Sequence record: MZ997841.1
Direction: 5' to 3' (one strand)
Length of the DNA stretch: 46,142 nt
Origin: Escherichia phage ULINTec7
Shown piece after piece: positions 1-43,248 of the stretch. Positions within the stretch are counted from its first letter, which is position 1; each line of letters opens with the position of its first letter. A program made the position numbers and the translations under genes. The notes under the pieces were generated by a model that saw only the letters and a list, made by a program, of their open reading frames with translations, was not told the origin of the DNA and did no database searches.

Positions 1-634
1 CCATATGGGGTCGGTCGGCGGTTGACCTAGGAATTGGGCGGGGCGGGTCCGTCTTCAACCTGCTGCCGCAGGAAGCTCGACGGGTGGGCGAGGGCTTGCC
101 TTGTACTCGCTTAGTGGTACACAAGGAGAACGCCTAGGAAGCGCTAGGGCACGCCTTAGTATTGGACAAGGTGATTGCCTTAGTTCAACCGCTTAGGGCT
201 TACACGGGCCGTTTTAGGGCCATTCCTGAGCGTTTGACAGGGTGTGAGGGCGTGGGCTATCTGTTCGTTTCGTTCACTCCGCTTGCGCTACGTTCACTCG
301 CTCACGTGTACCTTAGGTTATTCCTTGATGGATAGCTTAGATTAGCCTTAGTGGATTACCTTAGTTAAAGCCTTAGTGCTTCACTTAGTATCAGCTTAGT
401 AGTGTACCTTAGTAAGTCTTAGTGTCTTCTCTTAGTGATTGCACATGCAAGCATGTAAGATGCCATTAGGTCGCGGTCGGTAGACCGCTAAAAGAAGGAG
501 AATAGTAATAAGATGCAGTAGGAGGAACACCAGAAGCCTAGCCAACCTAGCCTATCCTAGCTCTGTATCTATTGCTTTTCCTTAGTCTAACACGTTAGAC
601 AACCTATCTTATTCTTAGTGATGGTAACTTAGTG

Positions 635-2663: not shown

Positions 2664-3548
2664 ATGACTACTGAAAACACCCTTCTGTCTGTTCGTGAAG
2701 CTGCAACCGCTGAAATCAAGCAGCACTTAGACAATATCGGCACTTCTTACATCAAAGTTGGCGCTTGTCTGAATGAATTACGCGGTGATTTCGAAGGTCA
2801 AAAAGACTTTTTAGCTTATGTAGAATCAGAGTTCGGCATCAAGAAGGCACAATGCTACAAGCTGATGAGTGTAGCCCGTGTCTTTGAAGGAGACGAACGC
2901 TTTAAAGGTGTGGCTATGCGTGTAATGCTGGCGCTTGTTCCTTTCGCTGATGAAAATATAATCATGGAGAAGGCCGCAGAACTCGCCGCAGATGGCAAGC
3001 TGGACACTAACGCCGTAAACGCCCTGATTGATCCTAAGAAAGAGACAAAGGCCGAGACGGTACAATCTAAGGCTGAGACAGTAAAACCGCAGGAGAACGC
3101 TACTGAGGCCGCAGAATCACAGGAAATGCAAGCGCCGCAGGTAGTTCCACCCGCTAGCGAGCAGGATGCCGACGAATCAGCACCGTGGGATGAGGAAAGC
3201 AAGCCGGAAGCGCCAAAGGCAGCGCCGCTGGATAACACGGCTAATACCGAAAACGCCGCTATATCTGGCCTACTGGCACAAATTAAGGCACTGACTGAGC
3301 AATTACAGGCAGCTAATGACCGCATCGCCTCCTTAAGTAGTGCACGCGAAAGCAAGAAGGCAGCCGCGCCTATGCTGCCGCAATTCAAATCTTCCTGCTT
3401 CTATGCTCGCTTAGGTTTAAGCGCTGAGGAGGCAACGAAGAAAACAGCAGTTAACAAGGCACGCCGCGAACTGGTTAAGCTAGGCTACGGTGAAGGCCAT
3501 GAAGCATGGCCCTTAATCTCTGAGGCAGTAGAAGAGTTGACTAAGTAA
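2664..3548 (+). CDS. Early protein of unknown function, in the slot occupied by kinase 0.7 in T7
   Basis: 294 aa from the ATG at 2664 (TAAGG 8 nt upstream); the ORF-track start at 2655 is a GTG. No kinase motifs seen. Has a central Ala/Glu/Pro/Lys-rich low-complexity linker. Confidence 0.6.
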   Translation: MTTENTLLSVREAATAEIKQHLDNIGTSYIKVGACLNELRGDFEGQKDFLAYVESEFGIKKAQCYKLMSVARVFEGDERFKGVAMRVMLALVPFADENIIMEKAAELAADGKLDTNAVNALIDPKKETKAETVQSKAETVKPQENATEAAESQEMQAPQVVPPASEQDADESAPWDEESKPEAPKAAPLDNTANTENAAISGLLAQIKALTEQLQAANDRIASLSSARESKKAAAPMLPQFKSSCFYARLGLSAEEATKKTAVNKARRELVKLGYGEGHEAWPLISEAVEELTK

Positions 3549-6239: not shown

Positions 6240-6313
6240 TATTAATAGGCCATTCCTTAGGGAGTGGCCTTTTTCTTTACCTACTACCTGTAACATTTCA
6301 TTAACATAAAAGT

Positions 6314-6329
6314 GTCTCACATGTGAGAC
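6314..6329. promoter_or_regulatory. Conserved palindrome GTCTCACATGTGAGAC, copy 1
   Basis: Perfect 16-bp palindrome immediately 5' of the promoter at 6331. Confidence 0.6.
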
Positions 6330-6330
6330 T

Positions 6331-6352
6331 TATTTACCGGACACTATAGGAT
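6331..6352 (+). promoter_or_regulatory. Phage-RNAP promoter
   Basis: TATTTACCGGACACTATAGGATAG matches the consensus. Confidence 0.7.
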
Positions 6353-6500
6353 AGCCGTCGGAGACGGGAAAGAAAGGGAAGATAAAGGATATAAAGGAAG
6401 TAATAGGTATTAAAGGTTATATAGGTTATCTAGGAATACCTAGGAATACCTATTACCTTCTTCCTTCCTCTTATTACCACTTAGAGGAAGGGCAGACCTA
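6353..6500. promoter_or_regulatory. AT-rich dyad-symmetric region, candidate primary replication origin
   Basis: Purine-rich arm at 6366-6411 and complementary pyrimidine-rich arm at 6445-6478, with direct repeat TAGGAATACC x2 at 6431-6450. Lies between two promoter copies just downstream of the RNAP gene, the position of the T7 primary origin. Confidence 0.45.
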
Positions 6501-6503
6501 GGT

Positions 6504-6520
6504 TGTCTCACATGTGAGAC
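6504..6520. promoter_or_regulatory. Conserved palindrome TGTCTCACATGTGAGAC, copy 2
   Basis: Same palindrome as at 6314, followed by a promoter-like sequence. Confidence 0.6.
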
Positions 6521-6522
6521 TT

Positions 6523-6547
6523 CGTATTTACCGGACAGTATAGATAA
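6523..6547 (+). promoter_or_regulatory. Phage-promoter-like sequence (degenerate: ACAGTATAGATAAG)
   Basis: GTATTTACCGGACAGTATAGATAAG differs from the consensus in the conserved CACTATAGAAG core. Confidence 0.35.
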
Positions 6548-6573
6548 GACTAACTTACTTTGGAGATTTAACC

Positions 6574-6711
6574 ATGCGTAACGTAGAAAAGATTACCCGT
6601 AGAAGCCGTCATGAGTGCGATGTAGATATTAGCACCCTTAAGAATCGTGCCAAAAAGTGGGTACAACAACGCGGCGGTGTCAATCGTAATATGAAACGTA
6701 ATTGGAACTAA
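6574..6711 (+). CDS. Small basic protein (45 aa), T7 gp1.1-like
   Basis: Hand-translated MRNVEKITRRSRHECDVDISTLKNRAKKWVQQRGGVNRNMKRNWN resembles recalled T7 gp1.1 (MRNFEKMTKRSNRN...). Confidence 0.5.
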   Translation: MRNVEKITRRSRHECDVDISTLKNRAKKWVQQRGGVNRNMKRNWN

Positions 6712-6721
6712 AGGGCAGACC

Positions 6722-7875
6722 ATGGCTATTATTAATAACATCCCATGTCCTCAATGTCAGAAGAATGGACACGATAAATCAGGCAACCACCTTATGATAT
6801 TCGAGGATGGTGCTGGGTACTGTAACCGTGGTCACTTCCATGATAATGGCAGACCTTACTACCATAAGCCTGAAGGGGGCATCGAGATAACCGAGTTGCC
6901 TATTACTGGCAATATCAAATATACACCTTCCCAGTTTAAAGAGATGGAGAAGGAAGGGAAGATTAGCGACCCTAAGCTACGCGCCATCGCACTTGGTGGT
7001 ATGCGTATGAAAGACCGTTGGGAGGTTATGAATGAGCAAGAAAGGGCAGACCAAGAAACAGAGTGGAAACTTGATGTTGAATGGTTCCTCACGCTTAAGC
7101 GTAAGAATCTTGTTTCCCGACACATTCGCGGCGACATTTGCGCATTGTATGATGTACGGGTCGGACACGATGAAGAAGGTAGAGTCTCACGGCATTACTA
7201 TCCACGCTTCGAAAAATGTGAGCTAGTAGGCGCTAAGTGTCGCACATTACCTAAAGACTTTAAGTTTGGTCATTTAGGTAAACTATTTGGTATGCAAGAT
7301 CTTTTCGGTATGAATACTTTGTCTCACGTGTTAGACAAGGGAAGACGAAAGGATTGCTTGCTTATTGTCGGCGGCGAACTGGATGCACTAGCAGCACAGC
7401 AAATGCTCCTTGATTCTGCCAAGGGTACTAAGTGGGAAGGCCAGCCTTACCATGTATGGTCTGTCAATAAAGGTGAGTCTTGCCTTGAAGAGATAGTACA
7501 GAACCGTGAACACATCGCCCAATTTAAGAAGATTATATGGGGTTTTGATGGAGATGAGGTAGGGCAGAAGCAGAATCAGCAAGCGGCTCGCCTGTTTCCT
7601 GGCAAATCCTATATCCTTGAGTACCCTTCTGGTTGCAAAGATGCCAACAAGGCATTGATGGCTGGCAAGGCTAAAGAGTTTGTTGATGCATGGTTTAATG
7701 CCAAGTCATCTGATGAAGTCTTTGGTAGCCAGATTAAATCTATCGCATCTCAAAGGGATAAGCTCAAGGCTGCACGTCCAGAGCAAGGACTATCATGGCC
7801 TTGGCCTAAGCTGAACAAGGTAACGCTAGGTATTCGTAAGAACCAACTTATCATTGTAGGCGCAGGCTCTGGCGT
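6722..7875 (+). CDS. DNA primase-helicase, exon 1 (zinc ribbon, TOPRIM, start of helicase Walker A)
   Basis: CPQC...C..GHFH zinc ribbon and LLIVGGELDALAAQQ TOPRIM resemble T7 gp4. The ORF continues to ...LIIVGAGSGV and then runs into a stop at 7895-7897 within inserted sequence; the proposed exon ends at 7875. Confidence 0.7.
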
Positions 7876-8662
7876 TAACATTAGCGCCGCCATGTAGTAA
7901 TACATGGGCAATAATCGTGTGAACTCAGGGGAAGACTAGAACAGTTAATCCTGAGCCAAGCTAGGCACACCTCAAATTCAAAGGAGGTGTTATGCAATTT
8001 AAAGAAGTACCAGATCACAGTAATTATATTTGTTATGAGAATGGCACGGTTGTTAATCGTAAGACTGGAAAGGTCTTGAAAGAAGATACAACTAACCGAG
8101 GTTATAAGCGGATTACAGTAAGCAAGGGCAACAAGGTAACACGTTGGAGTGTGCACCGTTTAGTTGCTTTACTGTTTATCCCTAACCCTCATAATTATGA
8201 AACTGTTAATCACATATCGGGAGATAAGACGGATAACTCTGTTAGTAATCTTGAGTGGATGAGCCAAGAACAGAACCAAGCCCATGCTAAATATACAGGA
8301 CTGTGTCCTAAAGGTGAGGCTGTTGGCACTAATAAGTTCAAAGAGGCAACTATTCATCAAGTGTGCAAGCTAATAGAGAAAGGTTTATCTCGCGGTGAAA
8401 TTATGAAAGCAACGAGCATCTCTAAAGCAACCTTTGATGACATTCGTAGAAGGAAGACTTGGAAGCACGTATCTTGTTCATATAAATGGTGACAATCTGG
8501 TGTGCCTAGAAGGTGCAACGACTATCCCGAAAGGGAGTACAGCCAAGCGGCTGGAAGCGCACGACACCCATCGTGGGTGATGATATAGTCTGGTCTATAT
8601 GGGGACATATAGCAGTTCATAAGAGAACGGGCGTGGCTTAGCGAACCACGTCGAACATAACG
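7876..8662 (+). mobile_element. Putative group I intron carrying an HNH homing endonuclease ORF, inserted in the helicase Walker A codons
   Basis: The 5' exon ends in U (7875) and the insert ends in G (8662). Exon 3' end GGCGU can pair with intron GCGCC at 7884-7888 (P1 with a U.G wobble). The downstream frame opens right after a stop at 8658-8660 with GKTEF and no start codon. Joining gives the contiguous P-loop GAGSGVGKTEF. Confidence 0.6.
7992..8492 (+). CDS. HNH homing endonuclease (intron-encoded)
   Basis: 166 aa with HRLVALLFIPNP...VNHISGDKTDNSVSNLEW, a typical HNH/AP2-type motif; AGGAGG SD upstream; a paralog of the ORF at 10976. Confidence 0.85.
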   Translation: MQFKEVPDHSNYICYENGTVVNRKTGKVLKEDTTNRGYKRITVSKGNKVTRWSVHRLVALLFIPNPHNYETVNHISGDKTDNSVSNLEWMSQEQNQAHAKYTGLCPKGEAVGTNKFKEATIHQVCKLIEKGLSRGEIMKATSISKATFDDIRRRKTWKHVSCSYKW

Positions 8663-9497
8663 AGGTAAGACTGAGTTCCTTCGTGAAGTAGTTAAGCACC
8701 TCATTGAAGAACACGGTGAATCTGTAGGCATCATTTCTACAGAAGACCCGATGGTCAAGGTGTCCCGTGCTTTTATCGGCAAGTGGATTGATAAGCGTAT
8801 TGAGTTACCGCCAACCAACGACCCGAAAGAAGATGGATACCGTGAGGTGTTCGACTACACCGAGGAAGAAGCTAACGCCGCCATTGATTATGTAGCTGAT
8901 ACAGGTAAGCTGTTTGTGGCTGACCTAGAGGGTGACTATTCGATGGAAAAGGTAGAGCAAACTTGCCTAGAGTTTGAGGCTATGGGCATTTCTAATATCA
9001 TCATTGATAACTTAACGGGGATTAAATTAGATGAGCGTGCTTTTGGTGGGAAGGTTGGTGCACTTGATGAATGCGTCAAGCGGATTGGTACTATCAAAGA
9101 CCGACACCCGGTTACTATATTCCTTGTATCACACCTTACACGTCCTCCGGCAAACCGTACCCAACATGAAGAAGGTGGCGAAGTTATCCTTTCTGACTTC
9201 CGAGGCTCAGGCGCTATCGGATTCTGGGCATCTTACGCCTTGGGGATTGAGCGTAATACAAGAGCTGAAACGCTTGACGAAAGGACTACCACGTACATCT
9301 CATGTGTCAAAGACCGCGACCAAGGTATCTGGACTGGAACCAAGGTCATGCTTAAGGGTGACATTCAAACCGGACGTTTAATGGAACCACAAGCCCGTAC
9401 TAAGTCATTTGATACAGGTGAAGCAAGGCAACAAGAAGTGCCGGATTTACCGGACACTATAGAAGAGACAACCTTTGACGATGAACAGGAGTTTTAA
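8663..9497 (+). CDS. DNA primase-helicase, exon 2 (helicase RecA-like domain)
   Basis: Frame reads GKTEFLREVV... from 8663, through the ORF-track ATG at 8751, to DDEQEF. FLVSHLTRP and SDFRGSGAIGF...LGIERN resemble T7 gp4 helicase motifs. Exon 1 plus exon 2 is 1989 nt, a 662-aa product. Confidence 0.7.
9445..9467 (+). promoter_or_regulatory. Phage-RNAP promoter inside the helicase 3' coding region
   Basis: ATTTACCGGACACTATAGAAGAG matches the consensus. Confidence 0.65.
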
Positions 9498-9658
9498 TGG
9501 AAATTATTAAACCAGTATTGAATATCGGTATTGAGATCCTATTCATGCTTGTGATCGCAGATTATGCTGCACGATATGGATTCAAGAAAGCTGTGAAACT
9601 TATCGTTGCATCTGGTTTTCTTATGTCAATGTTCTTTATTGTAACACGCCTTATCTAG
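9497..9658 (+). CDS. Hypothetical small membrane protein (53 aa)
   Basis: ATG overlaps the helicase stop (TAATG); hydrophobic segments present. Confidence 0.35.
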   Translation: MEIIKPVLNIGIEILFMLVIADYAARYGFKKAVKLIVASGFLMSMFFIVTRLI

Positions 9659-9671
9659 TGTATTTATCAGG

Positions 9672-9695
9672 GCTTGTCTCACATGTGAGACAGGC
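9672..9695. promoter_or_regulatory. Conserved palindromic hairpin GCTTGTCTCACATGTGAGACAGGC, copy 3
   Basis: Extended 11-bp stem around the 16-bp core, located at a gene end. Confidence 0.6.
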
Positions 9696-9730
9696 TCTTA
9701 TTAAGTACATTAAATAACTGGAGATTGATT

Positions 9731-10682: not shown

Positions 10683-10848
10683 ACATAGTCTTAAAATGTT
10701 CGATGGTCATGAAGACCTGCAAGCCAAGATTACTAACCAAGCCTTCCTGTTTGCACAGTTAACTATGGCTGAAGCAAAGAAGAATAGCCTGACGCGTGAA
10801 CAGGTTATCAAGGAAAGTGAAGTGAAACGTAAGATTCGCAGTCGATAA
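10672..10848 (+). CDS. Hypothetical small protein (58 aa)
   Basis: Hand-translated ORF overlapping the end of the upstream gene. Confidence 0.3.
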   Translation: MQNKHSLKMFDGHEDLQAKITNQAFLFAQLTMAEAKKNSLTREQVIKESEVKRKIRSR

Positions 10849-10854
10849 GTCAAG

Positions 10855-10878
10855 GGTTGTCTCACACGTGAGACAGCC
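10855..10878. promoter_or_regulatory. Conserved palindromic hairpin, copy 4 (loop variant CACACGTG)
   Basis: GGTTGTCTCACACGTGAGACAGCC: the stem is conserved while the central dinucleotide differs. Confidence 0.55.
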
Positions 10879-10908
10879 TTTCATCATATTGATTGGAGGA
10901 TTAACTTT

Positions 10909-11016
10909 ATGAATAACTACGACTCTGATTGGGATTTCTACGATTCAATGCAATCTAAACCAGAAAGGAGGGAGGATGAGTTCGAAACAGATCAAATGTA
11001 CGAGGATTTTTACTAA
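10909..11016 (+). CDS. Hypothetical small acidic protein (35 aa)
   Basis: Short ORF that overlaps the start of the HNH gene; weak call. Confidence 0.2.
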   Translation: MNNYDSDWDFYDSMQSKPERREDEFETDQMYEDFY

Positions 11017-11455
11017 CTACATCCTCTACTCTGATGGTCGAGTTCTTAACGAGAAAACCGGACAATATCTAAGAGGTTACTTAGATAAAGATGGGTATCA
11101 TATTATGAATATTAAAGGGAAACACCTTAAAGTTCATCGATTAGTTGCTATCCATTTCATACCTAACCCTAATAATTTACCTGAAGTTAACCATAAAGAT
11201 CATGACCGTCTAAACAATAATGATTGGAATCTAGAGTGGTGTACTCATCAAGATAACAACAAGCATAGCTTACATTTAGTAATAGCTTCTTGTGCTAAAC
11301 GCTATGACTTTATATCACCACAAGGTGTCCATGTAGAAGTCTATAACTTACGTGAGTTTTGTAGGAATAACAACCTACAGCAATCTCATATGGTTAAGGT
11401 GGCTAAAGGTAAAGTAAGACATCATAAAGGTTGGACTAATTATGCTAGATGTTGA
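10976..11455 (+). CDS. HNH homing endonuclease (free-standing)
   Basis: 159 aa with HRLVAIHFIPNP...VNHKDHDRLNNNDWNLEW; AGGAGGGAGG SD; paralog of the intron ORF at 7992. Confidence 0.85.
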   Translation: MSSKQIKCTRIFTNYILYSDGRVLNEKTGQYLRGYLDKDGYHIMNIKGKHLKVHRLVAIHFIPNPNNLPEVNHKDHDRLNNNDWNLEWCTHQDNNKHSLHLVIASCAKRYDFISPQGVHVEVYNLREFCRNNNLQQSHMVKVAKGKVRHHKGWTNYARC

Positions 11456-14104: not shown

Positions 14105-14202
14105 TGCAAACTGCTTTTATTATTCTTGGTGTCGTATTATTTATGGTAGTACTCTGGGCCTTCTCTGGCATTGACCCGGATTGTGATGGTAACTACGACT
14201 GA
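14104..14202 (+). CDS. Hypothetical small membrane peptide (32 aa)
   Basis: TAATG overlap with the previous ORF; single hydrophobic segment. Confidence 0.25.
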   Translation: MQTAFIILGVVLFMVVLWAFSGIDPDCDGNYD

Positions 14203-14259
14203 GTTATACTCAAGGTCACTTACGAGTGGCCTTTATGAATAACTTAACTGGAGAGTATT

Positions 14260-15459: not shown

Positions 15460-16266
15460 ATGGCACGTGGTGATTTTGATTTTGGTGCTTCCGTATCTAA
15501 AGCTGAAGGTAAAGTCTTTAAGAACCCAGAAGTAGGTGATCATGAAGCAGTAATCTCTGGCATCATTCATGTTGGTTCCTTCCAAGACATCTTTAAGAAA
15601 GGTAATACCACTGAAGTTAAGAAGCCAGCAAACTTTGTTCTAGTTAAGATTGTCCTGATGGGCGACGATGACAAGAACGAAGATGATTCTCGCATGGAAC
15701 AATGGATGGCTGTTCCTCTGAAGTCTGGTGATAAGGCAACACTGACTAAGTTCCTAAATGCAGTTGACCCAAAAGAATTGCTTGGTGGCTTCGATGATTT
15801 TATCGGGGAATGCCTGACTGCAACTATGGTTGGCTCTGGTGACAAGAATGACGATGGTTCATTCAAGTATGTTAACTGGAAAGGATTCGGTGGTATGCCT
15901 GACAAGCTTAAGAAACTTGTCATTGCTCAGGTTGAAGAAGAGGGTCTGTCTATGACAGGTCACATCACCTTCGACAAGCTGACCAAAGAAATCCTTGATG
16001 ACATTCCTGCTAACTTGGTACGCCAATACTTCCTGAATGAAACGCCTCGTGGTAAGAACCTGTCTGTTGCTGGCTCTCATGTAGAAGCAATCATTAAAGC
16101 TGCTCGTGAAGAAGACCCAGAGTGGAAGAAGGCCAAGAAGAAAGATGATGAGGATGCCACTCCAGCTAATCGTAAATCTCTGGACACTGGTGAGTCTGTT
16201 CCGCAGGAAGTACCTGAAGCAGAAGATACGCCTGCACCGGAGATGGATGAGGACGCAGAATATTAA
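15460..16266 (+). CDS. Putative ssDNA-binding protein (gp2.5-like by architecture)
   Basis: 268 aa with an acidic C-terminal tail ending in an aromatic residue (PEMDEDAEY), as in the T7 gp2.5 tail. The assignment is an inference from architecture only. Confidence 0.4.
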   Translation: MARGDFDFGASVSKAEGKVFKNPEVGDHEAVISGIIHVGSFQDIFKKGNTTEVKKPANFVLVKIVLMGDDDKNEDDSRMEQWMAVPLKSGDKATLTKFLNAVDPKELLGGFDDFIGECLTATMVGSGDKNDDGSFKYVNWKGFGGMPDKLKKLVIAQVEEEGLSMTGHITFDKLTKEILDDIPANLVRQYFLNETPRGKNLSVAGSHVEAIIKAAREEDPEWKKAKKKDDEDATPANRKSLDTGESVPQEVPEAEDTPAPEMDEDAEY

Positions 16267-16495: not shown

Positions 16496-16511
16496 GTCTC
16501 ACATGTGAGAC
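16496..16511. promoter_or_regulatory. Conserved palindrome GTCTCACATGTGAGAC, copy 5
   Basis: Lies 15 nt upstream of the promoter at 16526. Confidence 0.6.
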
Positions 16512-16525
16512 AAATCGGTGTCCGG

Positions 16526-16549
16526 TATTTACTGGACACTATAGAAGAG
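16526..16549 (+). promoter_or_regulatory. Phage-RNAP promoter
   Basis: TATTTACTGGACACTATAGAAGAG. Confidence 0.8.
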
Positions 16550-16598: not shown

Positions 16599-16976
16599 AT
16601 GTTCAAGATTGAAACTATCGTAAACCGTGTTGTTAAAGGTGCTGCTCTGGTATCCGTTGAGTCTTTCATTATCGTCGATGAAGCTGATCAACTGGTAGCT
16701 GGTACTAAGGCTTACGATACCCGTGAAGAAGCTCAGGCTAAGATTGACAGCATGGGTAACTTCGCTGCTGGTCTGGAGTTCGCTCGTGCTTGCTTCCCTG
16801 AGCAGGCTGACAAAGCTCAGATTGGTAAGGCTAATATCGTAGCTGAATATCTGGATTGGATTGCTGCTGGTAAGCCGGTGAAAGAAGTTAAGTCTGCTGA
16901 AGAAGCTGAAGCTCAGGCAGTAGAAGAAGTAGCTGCACCGGTAGATGCTCCGGTAAGCGAAGAAGAAGAGTTTTAA
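16599..16976 (+). CDS. Hypothetical acidic protein (125 aa) with C-terminal SEEEEF tail
   Basis: Bracketed by a consensus promoter upstream and a hairpin plus T-run downstream; AAGGAG SD. Confidence 0.65.
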   Translation: MFKIETIVNRVVKGAALVSVESFIIVDEADQLVAGTKAYDTREEAQAKIDSMGNFAAGLEFARACFPEQADKAQIGKANIVAEYLDWIAAGKPVKEVKSAEEAEAQAVEEVAAPVDAPVSEEEEF

Positions 16977-29902: not shown

Positions 29903-32850
29903 TGGCAATTGAGCGACAAGCAGTACAAGGTCTGCCACAAGTGCAGGCCACTTCTCCTAATGTCATGACCTTTGCACCTCAGCAAGCTGGAGGTGTGGAG
30001 GCTGGCGTAGCTTCTACCTCCGGTAGTCGATTTATCGAAGACCTTATTCGAGCAGCCAGTAGTGTAGCTGATGTAACCACTGGTATCCTTAATCAAAAGA
30101 TTGAGGAAGATAAGGTTGTTCAAATGGAACGGGCATATAATGGACTGATGCCTTCTGAGGATGCAACTCGTGGTGGCGCTCGTGCTAACATGCTTGTCAA
30201 AGCTCAACTGCTAGCTAATGATGAAGCAGCACGAATGAAAGACATGGCTACTCGTTTCCAAGGAACAGATGACGAGTGGACACAACTCATGGTTGACTCT
30301 CGTAATGAGATGCAGAATAAGCTGTTCCAGCAATACCCTGAGTTGCAAGGTGACAAAGATACTATGCGTATGGTCACTAATGTCTTCCAAGAACAGCAGC
30401 CTCAAATTTGGGCTACACGAACCCAGCATAAACTTGACCGTGAACAAGCAGACCGTGAGGACACCTTTGACGGGCGAGTGGCTTCTACTTGGGATTCTAG
30501 TATTGACCCAGAGGCTTCTGGTTATGCCCTACAGGAGCGAATCCGCGAGGGGTTTACTCAAGGGCTATTACCTGAGCAGATGCATAAGAAGCTGGTAGAG
30601 CGAGCTATTTCACTTGCTCAGGGTGGTGATATTAGCATGGCTGAAGCCTTGAAGTACGTGAAGGACGACAAGGGTGTTTCTGTCTATGCTAAGAATCCGC
30701 AGCTTATCACAGCTATCACTAGTGGTAATGCAGTTTGGGCTAGGAATAATGTTGCTGATGTGACTCGCATGTCTTTTGAAGTCAAAGAATCCTATCTTGC
30801 AGGTGACTTGACGGATGAAGAATTACTGGAGCGAGCACAGCACATTAATAGCCTGACAGGAAACTCTGTCTTCTCTAATCCAGAACTAGAAGCACTGATG
30901 CGTCAACGAGCTAAGCAGAATGCAGAGCTAGGTGCAATGCAGGATATGCGACGTGAACTTTACTCTGACCGCATGACTGGCTTCCAAGGTAAGACAGATA
31001 AAGAGAAGAAAGCCTACATTGATGTTATCAAACAGGATAGCCAACTATATGCAGACCAGCAAATCAAGCAGCGCGGATTGGACCCTTACAGCCAAGAGGC
31101 TGAAGCTATCCGTGGTGCAGTAGAAGTGCAGCGCCTGCAATTCATGAACTCCAAAGGCTTAGTGGATGATACCTTTGAGTCTCGTATCAAAGCCATGGAG
31201 TCTATGCTATCACCTGAGCACTTCGCTAAAGGCGAACCACAGGAGTTAATGACTATTCGTCAGTTGTGGGAACAGTTACCAGAAGAAAGCCGAGGTGTCT
31301 TTGGTGATACGGTGAATGGCTATATGGATAACTACAACACTGCATTACAAATGGGGGAGACGCCTTTGCAGGCTGCAAGGTTTGCCCGTGAAGCACAGCA
31401 GAAATTCTCTCGTACTGAGAAAGAAACCAAGAAGTTCAACTCAGCTATTGGAGATGCACTGGATGAGGTATCGGGTGCTGGCTGGTTTGATGGTAAAACC
31501 GAAGTGTCTGACTTAGGTAAAGCTATTGCAGAAGAAGAGTTACGAGCTAAGGCCAATATGCTGTGGTCTAGCGGTATGCGTAACATGGATTCCATCAAGA
31601 AGGCTTTAATTACTTGGGGCAATAAACGCTACACTCAATCAGAGGATGCAAAGACTTCCGGTGGTTATTTCATTAAAGGTGATTACACTTCTGCATCTGA
31701 CATGCTTATGTCTGTTGGGAAAGGTGTAAACCCTACCGATGTACCTCTGGCTCTTGGTAGGTATGTAGAAACACAAATGCCAGAATTGAAGAAGGAACTT
31801 CAAGAGTGGGAAACTAAGGATGATGTATACATTGATTACAATGAACAGAAAGGTACTTTCGTGATTCGTGCTGGTGCAGCAGGTCGCCCTCTTTCTGGAG
31901 TAATCCCTGTCACCTCTTTAGATACCACTTCACTGCTAGACTCTGCCTATCAGAAGAAAGTAGAAGAACGAGATAAAGGTGAATATGTTCACCCATATCG
32001 TACAGATATCGGTGCACAAGAACCCATGCCAGCTAAGCCAACTGCCAAGGATATTGGTAAATTTGGACTAGCTAATTTCCTCATGTCTTCTGCCTTTGCT
32101 TCTGGTGAGAACCTACCTTCTAACTTCGAGATTAACTATAGAGGCAATATGCAACAATTCTATGACAAGCTAGCTATGGATGAGAATGGCGATAAGCTGG
32201 GCTTCAACAAAGCCACAGGAACCTTCACACCGTACAAAGATGCACATGGCGAGTCGGTAGGCTATGGTCACTTCCTTACGGAAGAAGAAAAGAGAAATGG
32301 GTACATTAAGATTGGCGACGAACTAGTCCCGTATCGCGGCTCTATGTCTCAGCTCACTGAGAGTAAGGCCCGTGCTCTTATGGAACAAGATGCCAAGAAG
32401 CATGTACCTCCAACTCGTGATTGGAAAATCCCATTCGACCAGATGCATCCGGCACAGCAGCGCGGTTTAATGGATTTAACCTATAACTTAGGTAAAGGTG
32501 GAATCCAGAATGCACCGCGTGCTCTTGCTGCATTCAAGGCAGGTAAGCTTACAGAAGGCTTTATCGAAATGTTGGGTACTGCATCAAGTGAAGGTAAGCG
32601 TATTCCTGGTTTACTGAAGCGACGCGCTGAGGCTTACAATATGGCAGCTGCCGGTGGTGTACCTAAGATTACCGAAGTAGAGACTCGTGAAGATGGGTCT
32701 ATGTGGGTTAAGTTCGGTGGACCTATGCCAGCAGGTTCTGTATCTGCATGGACTCATAAACGTATTGGCGCTGATGGCTGGTATCAGGTTTATGAGGCTG
32801 CACCTACCAAGTTAGCTAAAGGCTCTAAGGTGGGTAAAGTTAAGTTGTAG
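29902..32850 (+). CDS. Internal virion protein with C-terminal lysozyme-like domain
   Basis: 982 aa; C-terminal YKDAHGESVGYGHFLT...LTYNLGKGGI resembles the T4 lysozyme segment YKDTEGYYTIGIGHLLT...MVFQMGETGV. Confidence 0.65.
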   Translation: MAIERQAVQGLPQVQATSPNVMTFAPQQAGGVEAGVASTSGSRFIEDLIRAASSVADVTTGILNQKIEEDKVVQMERAYNGLMPSEDATRGGARANMLVKAQLLANDEAARMKDMATRFQGTDDEWTQLMVDSRNEMQNKLFQQYPELQGDKDTMRMVTNVFQEQQPQIWATRTQHKLDREQADREDTFDGRVASTWDSSIDPEASGYALQERIREGFTQGLLPEQMHKKLVERAISLAQGGDISMAEALKYVKDDKGVSVYAKNPQLITAITSGNAVWARNNVADVTRMSFEVKESYLAGDLTDEELLERAQHINSLTGNSVFSNPELEALMRQRAKQNAELGAMQDMRRELYSDRMTGFQGKTDKEKKAYIDVIKQDSQLYADQQIKQRGLDPYSQEAEAIRGAVEVQRLQFMNSKGLVDDTFESRIKAMESMLSPEHFAKGEPQELMTIRQLWEQLPEESRGVFGDTVNGYMDNYNTALQMGETPLQAARFAREAQQKFSRTEKETKKFNSAIGDALDEVSGAGWFDGKTEVSDLGKAIAEEELRAKANMLWSSGMRNMDSIKKALITWGNKRYTQSEDAKTSGGYFIKGDYTSASDMLMSVGKGVNPTDVPLALGRYVETQMPELKKELQEWETKDDVYIDYNEQKGTFVIRAGAAGRPLSGVIPVTSLDTTSLLDSAYQKKVEERDKGEYVHPYRTDIGAQEPMPAKPTAKDIGKFGLANFLMSSAFASGENLPSNFEINYRGNMQQFYDKLAMDENGDKLGFNKATGTFTPYKDAHGESVGYGHFLTEEEKRNGYIKIGDELVPYRGSMSQLTESKARALMEQDAKKHVPPTRDWKIPFDQMHPAQQRGLMDLTYNLGKGGIQNAPRALAAFKAGKLTEGFIEMLGTASSEGKRIPGLLKRRAEAYNMAAAGGVPKITEVETREDGSMWVKFGGPMPAGSVSAWTHKRIGADGWYQVYEAAPTKLAKGSKVGKVKL

Positions 32851-32862
32851 TACCTAACTCAA

Positions 32863-32888
32863 GGCTTGTCTCACATGTGAGACAGGTC
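32863..32888. promoter_or_regulatory. Conserved palindromic hairpin, copy 6
   Basis: GGCTTGTCTCACATGTGAGACAGGTC, between the internal virion protein genes. Confidence 0.6.
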
Positions 32889-32914
32889 TTTATGATAGGC
32901 ACTATGGAGGAACT

Positions 32915-41270: not shown

Positions 41271-41349
41271 GTAAGATAGCGCCGTTCTTTTGAGCGGCCT
41301 ATTACTAGCCAATCTTCATAGGGAGGGTTGGAAAGTAATAGGAGATAGC

Positions 41350-43248
41350 ATGGCTAAATTAACCAAACCTAATACTGAAGGAATCTTGCATAAAGGACAA
41401 TCTTTGTATGAGTACCTTGATGCGAGAGTTTTAACATCAAAGCCATTTGGTGCTGCAGGTGACGCCACTACTGATGATACGGAGGTTATAGCTGCTTCAT
41501 TAAACTCTCAGAAAGCTGTCACAGTCTCAGATGGTGTATTCTCTAGCTCTGGTATTAATAGTAATTACTGTAACTTAGACGGTAGGGGTAGTGGCGTGCT
41601 AAGTCACCGTTCCAGTACAGGTAATTACTTAGTATTTAACAATCTACGTGCAGGTCGCTTAAGTAATATTACGGTAGAAAGTAATAAGGAGACTGATACA
41701 ACTCAGGGGCAGCAGGTATCTCTTGCTGGTGGAAGTGATGTTACTGTAAGTGACGTTAACTTCTCAAACGTTAAAGGTACTGGTTTCAGTTTAATCGCAT
41801 ACCCTAATGATGCGCCACCTGATGGACTTATGATTAAAGGCATTCGAGGTAGCTATTCCGGCTATGCTACTAATAAGGCAGCAGGATGCGTACTTGCTGA
41901 CTCCTCAGTTAACTCACTCATAGATAACGTCATTGCTAAGAACTACCCTCAGTTCGGAGCAGTAGAGTTGAAAGGTACAGCCAGTTACAACATAGTCAGT
42001 AATGTTATAGGGGCAGATTGCCAGCATGTAACTTACAACGGCACTGAAGGGCCAATAGCCCCTTCTAATAACCTTATCAAGGGGGTGATGGCTAATAACC
42101 CTAAGTATGCAGCGGTTGTTGCAGGCAAAGGAAGTACGAACTTAATCTCAGACGTGCTAGTAGATTACTCAACTTCTGATGCTAGGCAGGCTCATGGTGT
42201 TACCGTAGAAGGGTCTGATAACGTCATAAATAATGTGCTTATGTCAGGATGTGATGGTACTAACTCTTTAGGACAAGGGCAGACTGCTACAATTGCACGC
42301 TTTATAGGTACAGCTAATAACAACTATGCGTCTGTATTTCCTAGCTACAGTGCTACAGGTGTTATTACTTTCGAATCCGGCTCTACCCGTAACTTCGTAG
42401 AGGTAAAGCACCCTGGCAGGAGAAACGACCTTCTCAGTTCTGCTAGTACTATTGACGGTGCAGCTACTATTGACGGCACTAGTAATAGTAACGTAGTGCA
42501 CGCACCTGCCTTAGGGCAGTACATAGGTAGTATGTCAGGCAGGTTCGAATGGCGGATTAAGTCCATGTCACTCCCTTCAGGAGTTCTTACTTCTGCTGAT
42601 AAGTACAGAATGCTTGGAGATGGTGCTGTGTCATTAGCTGTAGGTGGGGGCACTTCTTCTCAAGTTCGCCTATTTACTTCTGATGGTACTTCTCGGACAG
42701 TGGCCTTCACCAACGGTAACGTGCGTCTTTCTACCAGTAGCACAGGCTATTTGCAGTTAGGTGCTGATGCAATGACCCCAGATAGTACTGGTACATACGC
42801 ATTAGGTTCCGCCAGTCGAGCATGGTCTGGCGGTTTTACTCAAGCAGCATTCACTGTTACCTCAGATGCTCGGTGTAAAACAGAACCTCTTACTATCTCA
42901 GATGCCTTACTGGATGCTTGGTCTGAAGTTGACTTTGTGCAGTTTCAGTATTTGGATCGGGTTGAGGAGAAGGGTGCAGACTCAGCTAGATGGCACTTTG
43001 GTGTCATCGCTCAGCGAGCTAAGGAAGCTTTCGAACGTCACGGCATAGATGCACACCGCTATGGCTTCTTGTGCTTCGACAGTTGGGATGCTGTATACGA
43101 GGAAGATGCCAATGGCTCTCGTAAGCTGATTACACCAGCAGGTTCCCGCTACGGTATTCGTTACGAGGAAGTACTGATATTAGAGGCTGCATTGATGCGG
43201 CGGACTATTAAGCGTATGCAGGAAGCACTAGCTGCCCTTCATAAGTAA
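41350..43248 (+). CDS. Tailspike 1: beta-helix polysaccharide depolymerase-like protein with C-terminal intramolecular chaperone domain
   Basis: 632 aa from the ATG at 41350 (AGGAG SD). Repetitive Gly/Ser/Thr/Asn/Val-rich beta-helix-like sequence. C-terminus SDARCK...GIRYEEVLILEAA is homologous to the endosialidase C-terminus. Confidence 0.7.
   Translation: MAKLTKPNTEGILHKGQSLYEYLDARVLTSKPFGAAGDATTDDTEVIAASLNSQKAVTVSDGVFSSSGINSNYCNLDGRGSGVLSHRSSTGNYLVFNNLRAGRLSNITVESNKETDTTQGQQVSLAGGSDVTVSDVNFSNVKGTGFSLIAYPNDAPPDGLMIKGIRGSYSGYATNKAAGCVLADSSVNSLIDNVIAKNYPQFGAVELKGTASYNIVSNVIGADCQHVTYNGTEGPIAPSNNLIKGVMANNPKYAAVVAGKGSTNLISDVLVDYSTSDARQAHGVTVEGSDNVINNVLMSGCDGTNSLGQGQTATIARFIGTANNNYASVFPSYSATGVITFESGSTRNFVEVKHPGRRNDLLSSASTIDGAATIDGTSNSNVVHAPALGQYIGSMSGRFEWRIKSMSLPSGVLTSADKYRMLGDGAVSLAVGGGTSSQVRLFTSDGTSRTVAFTNGNVRLSTSSTGYLQLGADAMTPDSTGTYALGSASRAWSGGFTQAAFTVTSDARCKTEPLTISDALLDAWSEVDFVQFQYLDRVEEKGADSARWHFGVIAQRAKEAFERHGIDAHRYGFLCFDSWDAVYEEDANGSRKLITPAGSRYGIRYEEVLILEAALMRRTIKRMQEALAALHK

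What the first reader, a model, noticed from the sequence alone, without database searches (positions are those of the whole stretch)
6314..6329. Conserved 16-bp palindrome GTCTCACATGTGAGAC placed immediately upstream of three phage promoters
Identical palindromes precede promoter-like sequences at 6314-6329 (promoter 6331), 6504-6520 (promoter-like 6523) and 16496-16511 (promoter 16526). A perfect dyad adjacent to promoters suggests either an operator for a dimeric DNA-binding protein or an RNA hairpin marking the end of the upstream transcript. Two of the three flank the putative origin.
Basis: seen in the sequence. Interest (0 to 1): 0.6.

Follow-up and report, generated by a model that had tools for sequence, protein, structure and literature searches.

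The report
Phage operator palindrome and its binder
The 16-base palindrome is real, occurs eight times rather than three, is conserved across SP6/K1E-like phages, and is most likely the DNA docking site of a previously unrecognised KorB/ParB-like early phage protein (gp6), pointing to an unstudied regulatory layer in these phages.

Summary
The window is a K1E/K1-5-like Vectrevirus genome. GTCTCACATGTGAGAC occurs 5 times exactly. With the variants at 585, 7321 and 10859 the family (GTCYMACRYGTKRGAC) has 8 copies, against 0 expected by chance.

The same sites recur at the same genome positions in Vectrevirus, Zindervirus, and Klebsiella, Erwinia, Proteus, Vibrio and Pseudomonas phage relatives. 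Each lineage has its own half-site (GTCTCAC, GTCYAAC, GTCTAGT, GTCTACA, GTCTAYT) and a 2- or 3-nt centre.

There are two classes:
- **Embedded copies (9676, 10859, 32868).** These cap covariation-supported hairpins with two stems and the T7 RNase III-site consensus (CUCAAGG…CUUUAUGAU).
- **Stand-alone copies.** These precede promoters or lie inside genes. About 30% of them break RNA pairing but keep family half-sites, with no strand bias. That pattern fits reading as double-stranded DNA.

Best reading (about 0.6): these are operator sites for gp6. What binding achieves (insulation, repression or origin control) is inferred, not shown.

The parts
585..600 (.). Family copy 1 (GTCTAACACGTTAGAC). 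It lies at the left end, 34 nt upstream of the -35 of the first sigma-70-like early promoter (635-663).
   Evidence: An orthologous copy is present at the left end of all relatives. In Proteus and Erwinia phages it abuts a phage promoter.
6314..6329 (.). Stand-alone copy 2. It follows the early terminator (6247-6270) and lies 2 nt upstream of promoter 6332.
   Evidence: It is orthologous in K1E, K1-5, SP6, Klebsiella, Erwinia and distant groups.
6505..6520 (.). Stand-alone copy 3. It lies 5 nt upstream of promoter 6526, after the purine-rich inverted-repeat region 6349-6504.
7321..7336 (.). In-gene copy 4 (GTCTCACGTGTTAGAC) inside the primase/helicase gene, encoding S-H-V-L-D. The T at position 12 is forced, because a G would create a TGA stop.
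   Evidence: It arose by substitution, not insertion. The surrounding two-stem fold is not conserved.
9676..9691 (+). Embedded copy 5. It forms the apex of the two-stem RNA hairpin 9656-9712 upstream of gene 10.
10859..10874 (+). Embedded copy 6 (centre AC). It forms the apex of hairpin 10839-10895.
   Evidence: K1-5 carries the GTCCAAC variant at this position.
16496..16511 (.). Stand-alone copy 7. It starts 1 nt after the gene 17 stop codon and lies 15 nt upstream of promoter 16527.
32868..32883 (+). Embedded copy 8. It forms the apex of hairpin 32845-32907 (ACTCAAGGCTT-core-AGGTCTTTATGAT), which carries the T7 RNase III-site consensus, upstream of gene 36.
6332..6354 (+). SP6-type phage promoter (equivalent of T7 phi1.1A).
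   Evidence: synteny.
6526..6548 (+). SP6-type phage promoter (equivalent of T7 phi1.1B), upstream of the gene 1.1 homologue 6574-6711.
16527..16549 (+). SP6-type phage promoter upstream of gene 18.
2664..3548 (+). Gene 6, the candidate cognate binding protein. It has an N-domain with a KorB/ParB-type DNA-binding fold (residues 10-125), a disordered linker, a long helix 193-232 taken as a coiled coil, and a J-domain-like C-terminus without the HPD motif.
14199..14246 (+). Canonical T7-like RNase III-type hairpin without the palindrome (TCAAGGTCACTTACGAGTGGCCTTTATGA). It serves as a comparator showing that the palindrome is a separable module.

Best explanation
The 16-bp palindrome is an operator-type site on double-stranded DNA. 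It has two inverted 8-bp half-sites (GTCYMACR), each read by one subunit of a dimeric early phage protein, gp6 (window 2664-3548). The N-terminal domain of gp6 has the helix-turn-helix DNA-binding fold of KorB/ParB proteins. A long predicted helix, taken here as a coiled coil, would hold two subunits together.

A genome carries about 8-10 sites. They lie just upstream of promoters: the two promoters of the origin-like region after the RNA polymerase gene, the gene 18 promoter, and the first early promoter. They also lie inside long early or middle genes. Where intergenic space is already taken by an RNase III-type hairpin, the site sits at the apex of that hairpin, the one place a palindrome fits without breaking the RNA structure.

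Shown here: the sites, their conservation, their promoter-upstream bias, half-site-wise evolution, the fold of gp6, and the co-variation between gp6 and the sites.

Inferred: that gp6 binds the sites, and that binding acts as a roadblock, insulator or repressor at these promoters and at the origin-like region.
For: 1. The sites are far above chance. There are 8 family copies against 0.00-0.26 expected.

2. They recur at the same eight genome positions across Vectrevirus, Zindervirus, and Klebsiella, Erwinia and Proteus phages. The family extends to distant relatives whose primase is 45% identical.

3. In 202 unique contexts, 49 of 163 stand-alone copies contain a non-pair inside the 'stem' yet keep family half-sites. 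Only 1 of 39 hairpin-embedded copies does (Fisher p = 1e-4).

4. At positions 4/13 the T..G (17) and C..A (14) arrangements are equally common in stand-alone copies. There is therefore no plus-strand G·U preference.

5. Locus L083 has an asymmetric site (GTCTACT/GTCTATT) in both orientations, 5 + 4 copies.

6. The in-gene copies arose by substitution and follow the lineage's half-site: His to Asn tracks C5 to A.

7. Stand-alone copies have a phage promoter core within 50 nt downstream in 77 of 210 contexts. Three control windows give 4-8 of 210.

8. About 4,975 aligned columns of 11 conserved proteins were scanned. Only one column has a single residue in all GTCTCAC-type genomes and different residues in the other types: gp6 residue 66.

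9. With residue 63 it forms five helix classes that match five half-site classes: Q..K = GTCTCAC (7 lineages), Q..N/H = GTCYAAC, W..R = GTCTAGT, Y..R = GTCTACA, Y..N = GTCTAYT. The K = GTCTCAC rule held in four lineages fetched afterwards.

11. T7, which lacks gp6, has no family member.
Against: - No binding experiment exists.
- The sequence family of the N-domain (DUF3102) has no known function.
- Spacings of 16 and 17 bp coexist in Proteus phage PM93. A rigid dimer would not tolerate this. The explanation needs the long disordered linker to give slack.
- The census is not corrected for shared ancestry.
- Embedded copies clearly obey RNA pairing, so an RNA-level role of the core itself is not excluded.
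- Only 3 of the 12 promoter-like sites on the + strand within 4 mismatches of the promoter 18-mer carry the site, so it is not a general promoter element.
- No gene's presence or absence tracks the number of sites.
Confidence: 0.6

Rival explanations
1. All copies act as RNA. A small conserved hairpin (6-7 bp stem, 3-4 nt loop) in the plus-strand transcript marks transcript boundaries. It would be recognised by host RNase III or by another RNA-binding factor. It would give stable 3' ends to upstream messages and define 5' ends next to promoters, as T7 RNase III sites do.
For: Three copies form the apex of long two-stem hairpins with strong covariation: 94.5% of cells paired, 15 of 24 pairs changed on both sides, 0 of 500 shuffles as good, and slid controls 31-44% paired. 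These hairpins carry the T7 RNase III-site consensus CUCAAGG…CUUUAUGAU. In T7, RNase III sites sit beside promoters (positions recalled from Dunn and Studier 1983; sequences checked). SP6 copies show a U·G wobble at positions 4/13 in the plus sense. Centres of 2 or 3 nt are easy for a hairpin.
Against: Stand-alone copies fold only as about -7 kcal/mol mini-hairpins with no lower stem. That is too short for RNase III by established knowledge. About 30% of them carry mismatches in the stem, and wobble orientation shows no strand bias. An asymmetric variant occurs in both orientations. Copies at the left end and behind the early terminator lie in poorly transcribed DNA. A canonical RNase III-type hairpin exists without the core (14199-14246). 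The Erwinia orthologue of site 8 also lacks it, so the core is not needed for that scaffold. No Rfam family matches.
Confidence: 0.17
2. The palindrome is a DNA structural signal for replication. It would extrude as a small cruciform, or fold on the displaced strand, behind transcribing phage RNA polymerase at promoter-origins. There it would serve as an entry or priming site for the primase/helicase. The invariant outer GTC on both strands resembles the T7 primase recognition triplet.
For: Two copies bracket the homologue of the T7 primary origin region, and one lies at the left end, where T7 has a secondary origin (established knowledge). GTC…GAC is the only part invariant in every lineage. 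The sites lie upstream of promoters, where transcription generates negative supercoiling (plus established knowledge). The 2- or 3-nt centre variation is compatible with hairpins.
Against: Mismatched arms in 30% of stand-alone copies would weaken extrusion. The conserved, lineage-specific inner bases (positions 4-8) are not explained by a three-base primase signal. The co-variation is with gp6, and no clean co-varying column was found in the primase/helicase. GC skew gives no clear origin signal.
Confidence: 0.1
3. The palindrome is a selfish or neutral repeat: a small mobile palindromic element, or conserved 'linker' sequence that merely promotes recombination between phage modules.
For: K1-5, L009 and L014 carry a foreign half-site variant at single positions, which suggests module exchange at or near the sites. 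HNH endonuclease genes lie nearby.
Against: In-gene copies arose by substitution without insertions or deletions. Positions are conserved for as long as the primase has diverged to 45% identity. All copies in a genome share the lineage's variant, and that variant tracks a protein residue.
Confidence: 0.04

Closest known systems
KorB and its OB operators on IncP plasmid RK2 (ParB family)
   Different: gp6 has no detected ParB/Srx CTPase domain and no KorB-type C-terminal dimerisation domain. Instead it has a long predicted helix taken as a coiled coil and a J-domain-like C-terminus lacking HPD. The site is 16-17 bp GTCT…AGAC rather than the 13-bp TTTAGCSGCTAAA. The replicon is a lytic phage, where partition is irrelevant. 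Binding and function are untested.
ParB-parS and SopB-sopC partition sites
   Different: The parS half-sites abut, whereas here they are separated by 2-3 bp. No ParA-type partner, CTPase domain or spreading is evident. The half-site resemblance is recalled, not tested.
T7 RNase III processing sites (R0.3, R0.5, R1.1, R4.7, R18.5)
   Same: Copies at 9676, 10859 and 32868 sit in two-stem hairpins with an asymmetric internal loop. The hairpin at 32868 carries the T7 flanking consensus ACUCAAGG…CUUUAUGAU. All three are intergenic, 31-34 nt before the next start codon.
   Different: The upper stem is 13 bp, against 7-10 bp in T7, because the palindrome is nested at the apex. The other five copies lack the lower stem and the consensus altogether. 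Cleavage is untested.
Lambdoid phage operators (dimeric HTH repressor sites at promoters)
   Same: Both show dyad symmetry, half-site reading and a position next to promoters.
   Different: The sites here do not overlap the polymerase contact region consistently: the palindrome's 3' edge lies from about -16 to about -36 relative to +1. They serve a single-subunit phage RNA polymerase. They are scattered genome-wide, and the phage is strictly lytic.

Membership tests
T7-type RNase III processing site | Hairpin with two stems (upper stem, internal loop, lower stem) | tested here: met
   Met for 9676, 10859 and 32868, with covariation in 15 of 24 pairs. Not met for 585, 6314, 6505 and 16496, which have only a 6-bp stem. 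For 7321 the fold is not conserved in relatives.
T7-type RNase III processing site | Flanking consensus CUCAAGG … CCUUUAUGAU shared by T7 R0.3, R0.5, R1.1, R4.7 and R18.5 | tested here: met
   32868 reads ACTCAAGGCTT-core-AGGTCTTTATGAT. 10859 and 9676 are looser (TCAAGGG…CCTTTCATCAT; TCAGGGC…CTCTTATTAAG). It is absent at the stand-alone copies.
T7-type RNase III processing site | Cleavage by host RNase III | not testable with these tools
   Needs in vitro cleavage or end mapping in rnc+ and rnc- hosts.
Rho-independent (intrinsic) terminator | Stable G+C-rich hairpin followed directly by a U tract | tested here: not met
   The consensus scan lists 6314 and 6505 only at the minimum threshold: 6 pairs, 3 G-C pairs, and tails TTATTTAC and TTCGTATTTA. 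Their dG is about -7 kcal/mol. 16496 and 585 have no U tract. A real terminator lies separately at 6247-6270.
Operator for a dimeric helix-turn-helix protein (KorB/ParB-like) | Dyad-symmetric site whose half-sites are conserved as sequence, independently of each other | tested here: met
   49 of 163 stand-alone copies break pairing but keep family half-sites, and there is no strand bias; an asymmetric variant occurs in both orientations.
Operator for a dimeric helix-turn-helix protein (KorB/ParB-like) | A cognate DNA-binding protein encoded in the same genome, with specificity residues that change with the site | tested here: met
   The gp6 fold matches KorB/ParB DNA-binding domains. Residues 63 and 66 of helix 61-74 track five half-site classes. 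The prediction held in new lineages. This is correlation only.
Operator for a dimeric helix-turn-helix protein (KorB/ParB-like) | Physical binding of the protein to the site | not testable with these tools
   Needs EMSA, footprinting or ChIP.
ParB family proper | N-terminal ParB/Srx CTP-binding domain | tested here: not met
   No Pfam ParB match in gp6 or in 55 relatives. The model begins directly with the DNA-binding domain. gp6 is therefore not filed as a ParB/KorB family member, only as sharing the DNA-binding fold.
J-domain co-chaperone | HPD tripeptide between helices II and III | tested here: not met
   None of 55 relatives has HPD/HPE in the C-terminal domain, despite weak DnaJ profile and fold matches.
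Any Rfam RNA family | Covariance-model match | tested here: not met
   No match at any copy at E <= 1.

The most novel reading that the evidence does not exclude
gp6 and its roughly 8-10 palindromes form a KorB-like genome-wide control system in SP6/K1E-type and related phages. An early protein docks upstream of the origin-region promoters, the gene 18 promoter and the first early promoter, and inside the polymerase and primase genes. It acts as a roadblock or insulator that times the switch from early and middle to late transcription, and shields the replication origin from read-through. In doing so it would fill the regulatory roles that T7 covers with gp0.7, gp2 and lysozyme, which these phages lack.
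Probability: 0.3. Interest if true: 0.8.

Novelty: new variant of a known kind. Interest (0 to 1): 0.68.

Why it matters
SP6-type phages supply a standard laboratory RNA polymerase, and K1E/K1-5-type phages are used in therapy work. Their transcription programme is nonetheless assumed to be 'T7-like', run by promoters, terminators and RNase III sites alone.

A conserved set of operator-like sites, paired with a conserved early protein of KorB/ParB DNA-binding fold, would add a protein-DNA regulatory layer not described in any paper the searchable library returned. The two primary genome papers on SP6 and K1-5 were not available to check.

It would also give a function to the DUF3102 domain family. 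It offers a natural protein/site specificity series: five helix classes matched to five half-site classes. And it yields a compact orthogonal DNA-binding module that sits next to orthogonal phage promoters.

Everything needed for a direct test is small: a 294-residue protein and a 16-bp site.

Tried and rejected
**Literature**
- Full-text searches for the palindrome and its variants, and for SP6, K1-5, RNase III, palindrome and DUF3102 terms, found nothing relevant.
- The SP6 genome paper (Dobbins 2004) is not held.
- GenBank records of K1E, K1-5 and SP6 carry no feature at the sites.

**RNA and composition**
- Rfam gave no match at any copy.
- The two-stem fold around the in-gene copy 7321 is not conserved in relatives, so it was dropped as an RNase III site.
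- GC skew is uniformly positive and not informative about an origin.

**Finding the binding protein**
- Gene presence or absence against the number of sites points to no gene.
- Pfam and PHROG scans of ten conserved unknown proteins showed no DNA-binding domain by sequence.
- A PDB sequence-profile search found no DNA-binding relative for gp6.
- The first AlphaFold run on a shallow alignment gave pLDDT 54, and its Foldseek matches were meaningless.
- A homologue search with a distant gp6 N-domain found nothing.

**Ideas considered and set aside**
- A host transcription-factor site: the variants do not follow host genus.
- A restriction or methylation site: these are normally avoided by phages, not conserved.
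- A class II pause signal for T7-type polymerases: only a partial ATCTGT match next to site 7 in SP6.
- Long-range pairing of copies 6314 and 6505 into a 16-22 bp duplex: RNAfold predicts it, but it needs read-through of the early terminator.

Full report
**What the window is.** The 46,142-bp window is a complete or near-complete genome of a K1E/K1-5-like phage (Vectrevirus, Molineuxvirinae). Its best match is Escherichia phage ULINTec6, at 99.3% identity over the region tested. Gene order follows K1E and K1-5. All genes are on the + strand. SP6-type promoter-like sequences occur at 6332, 6526, 9445, 10332, 14520, 15289, 16527, 19677, 24710, 37464, 39569 and 41248.

**Checking the observation.** Promoters begin 2, 5 and 15 nt downstream.
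- 10859: GTCTCACACGTGAGAC
- 7321: GTCTCACGTGTTAGAC
- 585: GTCTAACACGTTAGAC

Eight matches with up to 3 mismatches compare with 0.26 expected. The family pattern GTCYMACRYGTKRGAC gives 8 matches against 0.00 in shuffles.

**Conservation in relatives.** K1E and K1-5 have the same copies at the same places. I fetched 37 IMG/VR loci through the primase/helicase and 39 through gp6, plus SP6, Proteus PM93, Klebsiella VLCpiA2a and Erwinia VyarbaL. The family occupies the same positions throughout:
- the left end, before the first early promoter;
- after the RNA polymerase terminator;
- before the second promoter of that region;
- inside the primase/helicase gene;
- before gene 10;
- before gene 12;
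- before the gene 18 promoter;
- before gene 36;
- in many lineages, a further copy inside the RNA polymerase gene.

Each lineage has its own variant:

| Half-site and centre | Lineages |
|---|---|
| GTCTCAC, 2-nt centre | Vectrevirus, Erwinia phages |
| GTCTAAC/GTCCAAC, 2-nt centre | SP6-like, Klebsiella phages |
| GTCCAAC, 3-nt centre | Proteus phages, which keep one 16-mer at the left end |
| GTCTCAC, 3-nt centre | a distant group including contigs the length of Vibrio phage VEN and Pseudomonas phage uligo |
| GTCTAGT | L033, L038, L039 |
| GTCTACA | L081 |
| asymmetric GTCTACT/GTCTATT | L083 |

T7 has none.

**Two classes of copy.** RNA folding with flanks splits the copies.

*Embedded copies.* Copies 9676, 10859 and 32868 sit at the tip of long hairpins with two stems. 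These have a 13-bp upper stem, a 2/3-nt internal loop and a lower stem of about 10 bp, with dG of -27 to -31 kcal/mol.
- On an alignment of 34 distinct orthologues, this structure pairs 94.5% of cells. Fifteen of 24 pairs change on both sides, 0 of 500 shuffles do as well, and slid controls pair 31-44%.
- I folded the ten T7 RNase III sites at the positions I recalled from Dunn and Studier 1983. This recovered the consensus (A)CUCAAGG-stem-loop-CCUUUAUGAU in R0.3, R0.5, R1.1, R4.7 and R18.5.
- Window site 32868 reads ACTCAAGGCTT-[palindrome]-AGGTCTTTATGAT.
- The window also has a canonical hairpin of this kind without the palindrome at 14199-14246, conserved in K1E, K1-5 and SP6.
- The Erwinia orthologue of site 8 has a T7-like apex instead of the palindrome.

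So the palindrome is a separable module nested in the apex of RNase III-type hairpins. It is not a requirement of them.

*Stand-alone copies.* Copies 585, 6314, 6505 and 16496 fold only into a 6-bp, roughly -7 kcal/mol mini-hairpin. The wider fold around the in-gene copy 7321 is not conserved.

**DNA or RNA?** I took a census of 202 unique contexts.
- Embedded copies almost never break pairing inside the core (1 of 39).
- Stand-alone copies do so in 49 of 163 cases while still keeping family half-sites (Fisher p = 1e-4, not corrected for phylogeny).
- At positions 4/13, stand-alone copies show T..G 17 times and C..A 14 times. A plus-strand RNA stem would tolerate only the first. Embedded copies show 5 and 0.
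- The L083 variant is asymmetric and occurs in both orientations, 5 + 4.
- The primase copy is not an insertion. The peptide TLSHVLDKGR aligns without gaps to TMTAFLDKGR in phages that lack the site.
- That copy's codons follow the lineage's half-site (CAC His in GTCTCAC phages, AAC Asn in GTCYAAC phages). The one mismatch in Vectrevirus is forced, because the pairing base would create TGA.

These features fit recognition of each half-site on double-stranded DNA. RNA pairing acts as an extra constraint only where the site is nested in a hairpin.

The 16/17-bp spacing variation argues the other way for a rigid dimer. It has to be absorbed by flexibility in the protein.

**Position relative to promoters.** Across lineages, 77 of 210 stand-alone contexts have a phage promoter core within 50 nt downstream on the + strand. 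Three control windows give 4, 7 and 8. The +1 position lies roughly 16-36 nt from the palindrome's 3' edge. At the left end the site precedes either a phage promoter (Proteus and Erwinia phages) or sigma-70-type promoters.

The pair at 6314 and 6505 brackets 175 nt of structured purine-rich inverted repeat. This pair lies between the RNA polymerase gene and a homologue of T7 gene 1.1 (Pfam Phage_1_1). In T7 that position holds the phi1.1A/phi1.1B primary origin (established knowledge).

**A candidate partner.** All copies in a genome share that lineage's variant, so a phage-encoded factor evolving with them was expected. I scanned about 4,975 aligned columns of 11 conserved proteins. I looked for columns that separate GTCTCAC-type from GTCYAAC-type genomes.
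- Twenty-seven columns were disjoint between the two types.
- Only one had a single residue in all GTCTCAC genomes, which belong to three unrelated lineages. It had other residues in the other types: gp6 residue 66 is K, against N/H, against R.
- Together with residue 63, the segment K-K-A-x-x-Y-x-L-M gives five classes matching five half-site classes.
- The K = GTCTCAC rule held in four lineages fetched afterwards.
- Vectrevirus gp6 is overall closest to the gp6 of GTCYAAC-type phages (69-74% identity), yet it carries K66. The correlation is therefore not simple shared ancestry.

**What gp6 looks like.** gp6 (2664-3548) is encoded just upstream of the RNA polymerase gene.
- Fifty-five of the 118 representative relatives of its N-domain were scanned against Pfam. 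DUF3102 matched 18 of them, and a C-terminal DnaJ-like domain matched 8. None of the 55 keeps the HPD motif.
- With that alignment AlphaFold gave mean pLDDT 82.8, with both domains above 90. It predicts a disordered linker at about 130-190 and a long helix at 193-232.
- Foldseek was not significant, although KorB and VirB were among its top ten.
- Residues 63 and 66 lie on helix 61-74, the second helix of the helix-turn-helix-like pair 46-57/61-74.

**Explanation adopted.** The palindrome is an operator-type DNA site for gp6. gp6 is a KorB/ParB-fold DNA-binding protein that probably dimerises through the long helix, taken as a coiled coil, with a flexible linker that could tolerate 2- or 3-bp centres.

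Shown here:
- the sites exist and are conserved;
- they are biased to lie upstream of promoters;
- their half-sites evolve independently;
- gp6 has a KorB/ParB-like DNA-binding fold;
- gp6 residues co-vary with the half-site.

Inferred:
- gp6 physically binds the sites;
- binding has a functional consequence.

The most likely consequence is a roadblock or insulator upstream of selected promoters and around the origin-like region, and within the polymerase and primase genes. Where the palindrome's edge reaches -16 to -23, it could also hinder promoter binding directly. I put 0.6 on the operator reading and about 0.3 on this specific regulatory scenario.

**Rivals.**
- An RNA-only role (0.17) is well supported for the three embedded hairpins but not for the stand-alone copies.
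- A DNA-hairpin or priming role at origins (0.10) fits the positions. It does not fit the mismatched arms or the co-variation with gp6.
- A selfish or linker repeat (0.04) does not fit substitution-born in-gene copies or the long-term conservation of position.

**Comparison with known systems.** In working principle the closest system is KorB with its OB operators on plasmid RK2: dispersed palindromes, some abutting promoters and others inside genes. gp6 is not a member of that family. It lacks the ParB/Srx domain and KorB's C-terminal domain. The embedded copies belong, by structure and consensus, with the T7 RNase III sites, though cleavage is untested. None of the searches of the paper library returned a description of the palindrome family, of RNase III-type sites in these phages, or of a function for gp6 or DUF3102. 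The two primary genome papers (Dobbins 2004, Scholl 2004) were not available to check.

**Verdict.** The feature is real and far broader than the finding stated. I rate it a new variant of a known kind: operator sites of a ParB-fold protein, in a new setting and with a new protein architecture. Interest is 0.68.

Noticed in passing
window 7898-8750 (Rfam hit 8329-8612 +; ORF 7992-8492 +): The primase/helicase gene is split into ORFs 6722-7897 and 8751-9497 by an insert absent from K1E. The insert matches the group I intron model below its gathering score (37.2 bits against 50; E 1e-7 on the local search). It also carries an HNH_3 + HTH_7 endonuclease ORF. It looks like a mobile group I intron with a homing endonuclease.
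   Followed up: partly
window 10976-11455 (+): A free-standing HNH endonuclease ORF (HNH_3; PHROG HNH families) lies between the site at 10859 and the DNA polymerase gene. It is not present in K1E at this position.
   Followed up: partly
window 14199-14246 (+): A canonical T7-like RNase III-type hairpin (TCAAGGTCACTTACGAGTGGCCTTTATGA) without the palindrome. It is conserved in K1E (13864), K1-5 (12519) and SP6 (12234). I found no annotation of RNase III sites in these records.
   Followed up: partly
window 16517-16541 (+): The spacer between palindrome 16496 and its promoter (GGTGTCCGG) is the inverted repeat of the promoter's specificity region (CTGGACAC). The pairing co-varies with promoter type in SP6 (GTGTCTC/GGGGACAC, with a U·G) and in Proteus PM93 (GGTGGTCT/AGACCACT). 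A second hairpin therefore contains the promoter itself.
   Followed up: partly
window 6349-6504 (+): The 155-nt non-coding stretch between the two promoters is a purine-rich/pyrimidine-rich inverted repeat that folds strongly (-52.5 kcal/mol for 6349-6525, z -2.5). With both flanking palindromes included (6290-6560), RNAfold pairs the two palindromes into a duplex of about 22 bp (z -4.0). It could be an origin element or a structured RNA.
   Followed up: partly
window 6574-6711 (+): A 45-residue basic protein matches Pfam Phage_1_1 (T7 gene 1.1 protein). This fixes the synteny of the region with the T7 gene 1 / phi1.1A-B / gene 1.1 region.
   Followed up: yes
window 15460-16266 and 16599-16976 (+): gp16 (268 aa, ends …EMDEDAEY) and gp18 (125 aa, ends …VSEEEEF) have acidic C-terminal tails ending in an aromatic residue. 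This resembles the T7 gp2.5 single-strand-binding protein tail that contacts the replisome. The resemblance is from memory and was not tested.
   Followed up: no
window 41290-43248 and 43334-45769 (+): There are two consecutive tailspike-type genes. The first carries a Peptidase_S74 intramolecular chaperone domain and is only 33% identical to the K1E endosialidase. The second is 89% identical to it. This is a dual-tailspike arrangement like that of K1-5.
   Followed up: partly
window 7370-7392 (+), inside the primase/helicase gene: About 35 nt after the in-gene palindrome, the codons for G-G-E-L-D-A-L spell GAACTGGATGCACTAGCAG. This resembles the Vectrevirus promoter core (ACTGGA-CACTATAG) with a 2-nt insertion. 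In SP6 the same codons spell GGAGGTGAGC, resembling the SP6 promoter's AGGTGA. It may be chance or a weak internal promoter.
   Followed up: no
L006 (Erwinia phage VyarbaL, reverse complement) 375-430: In the Erwinia phage the left-end palindrome forms the apex of a terminator-like hairpin (GGTCTGCCTT-core-TCTAGGTAGGCC followed by TTTTATTTT). This is another case of the palindrome nested in the tip of an RNA hairpin.
   Followed up: no
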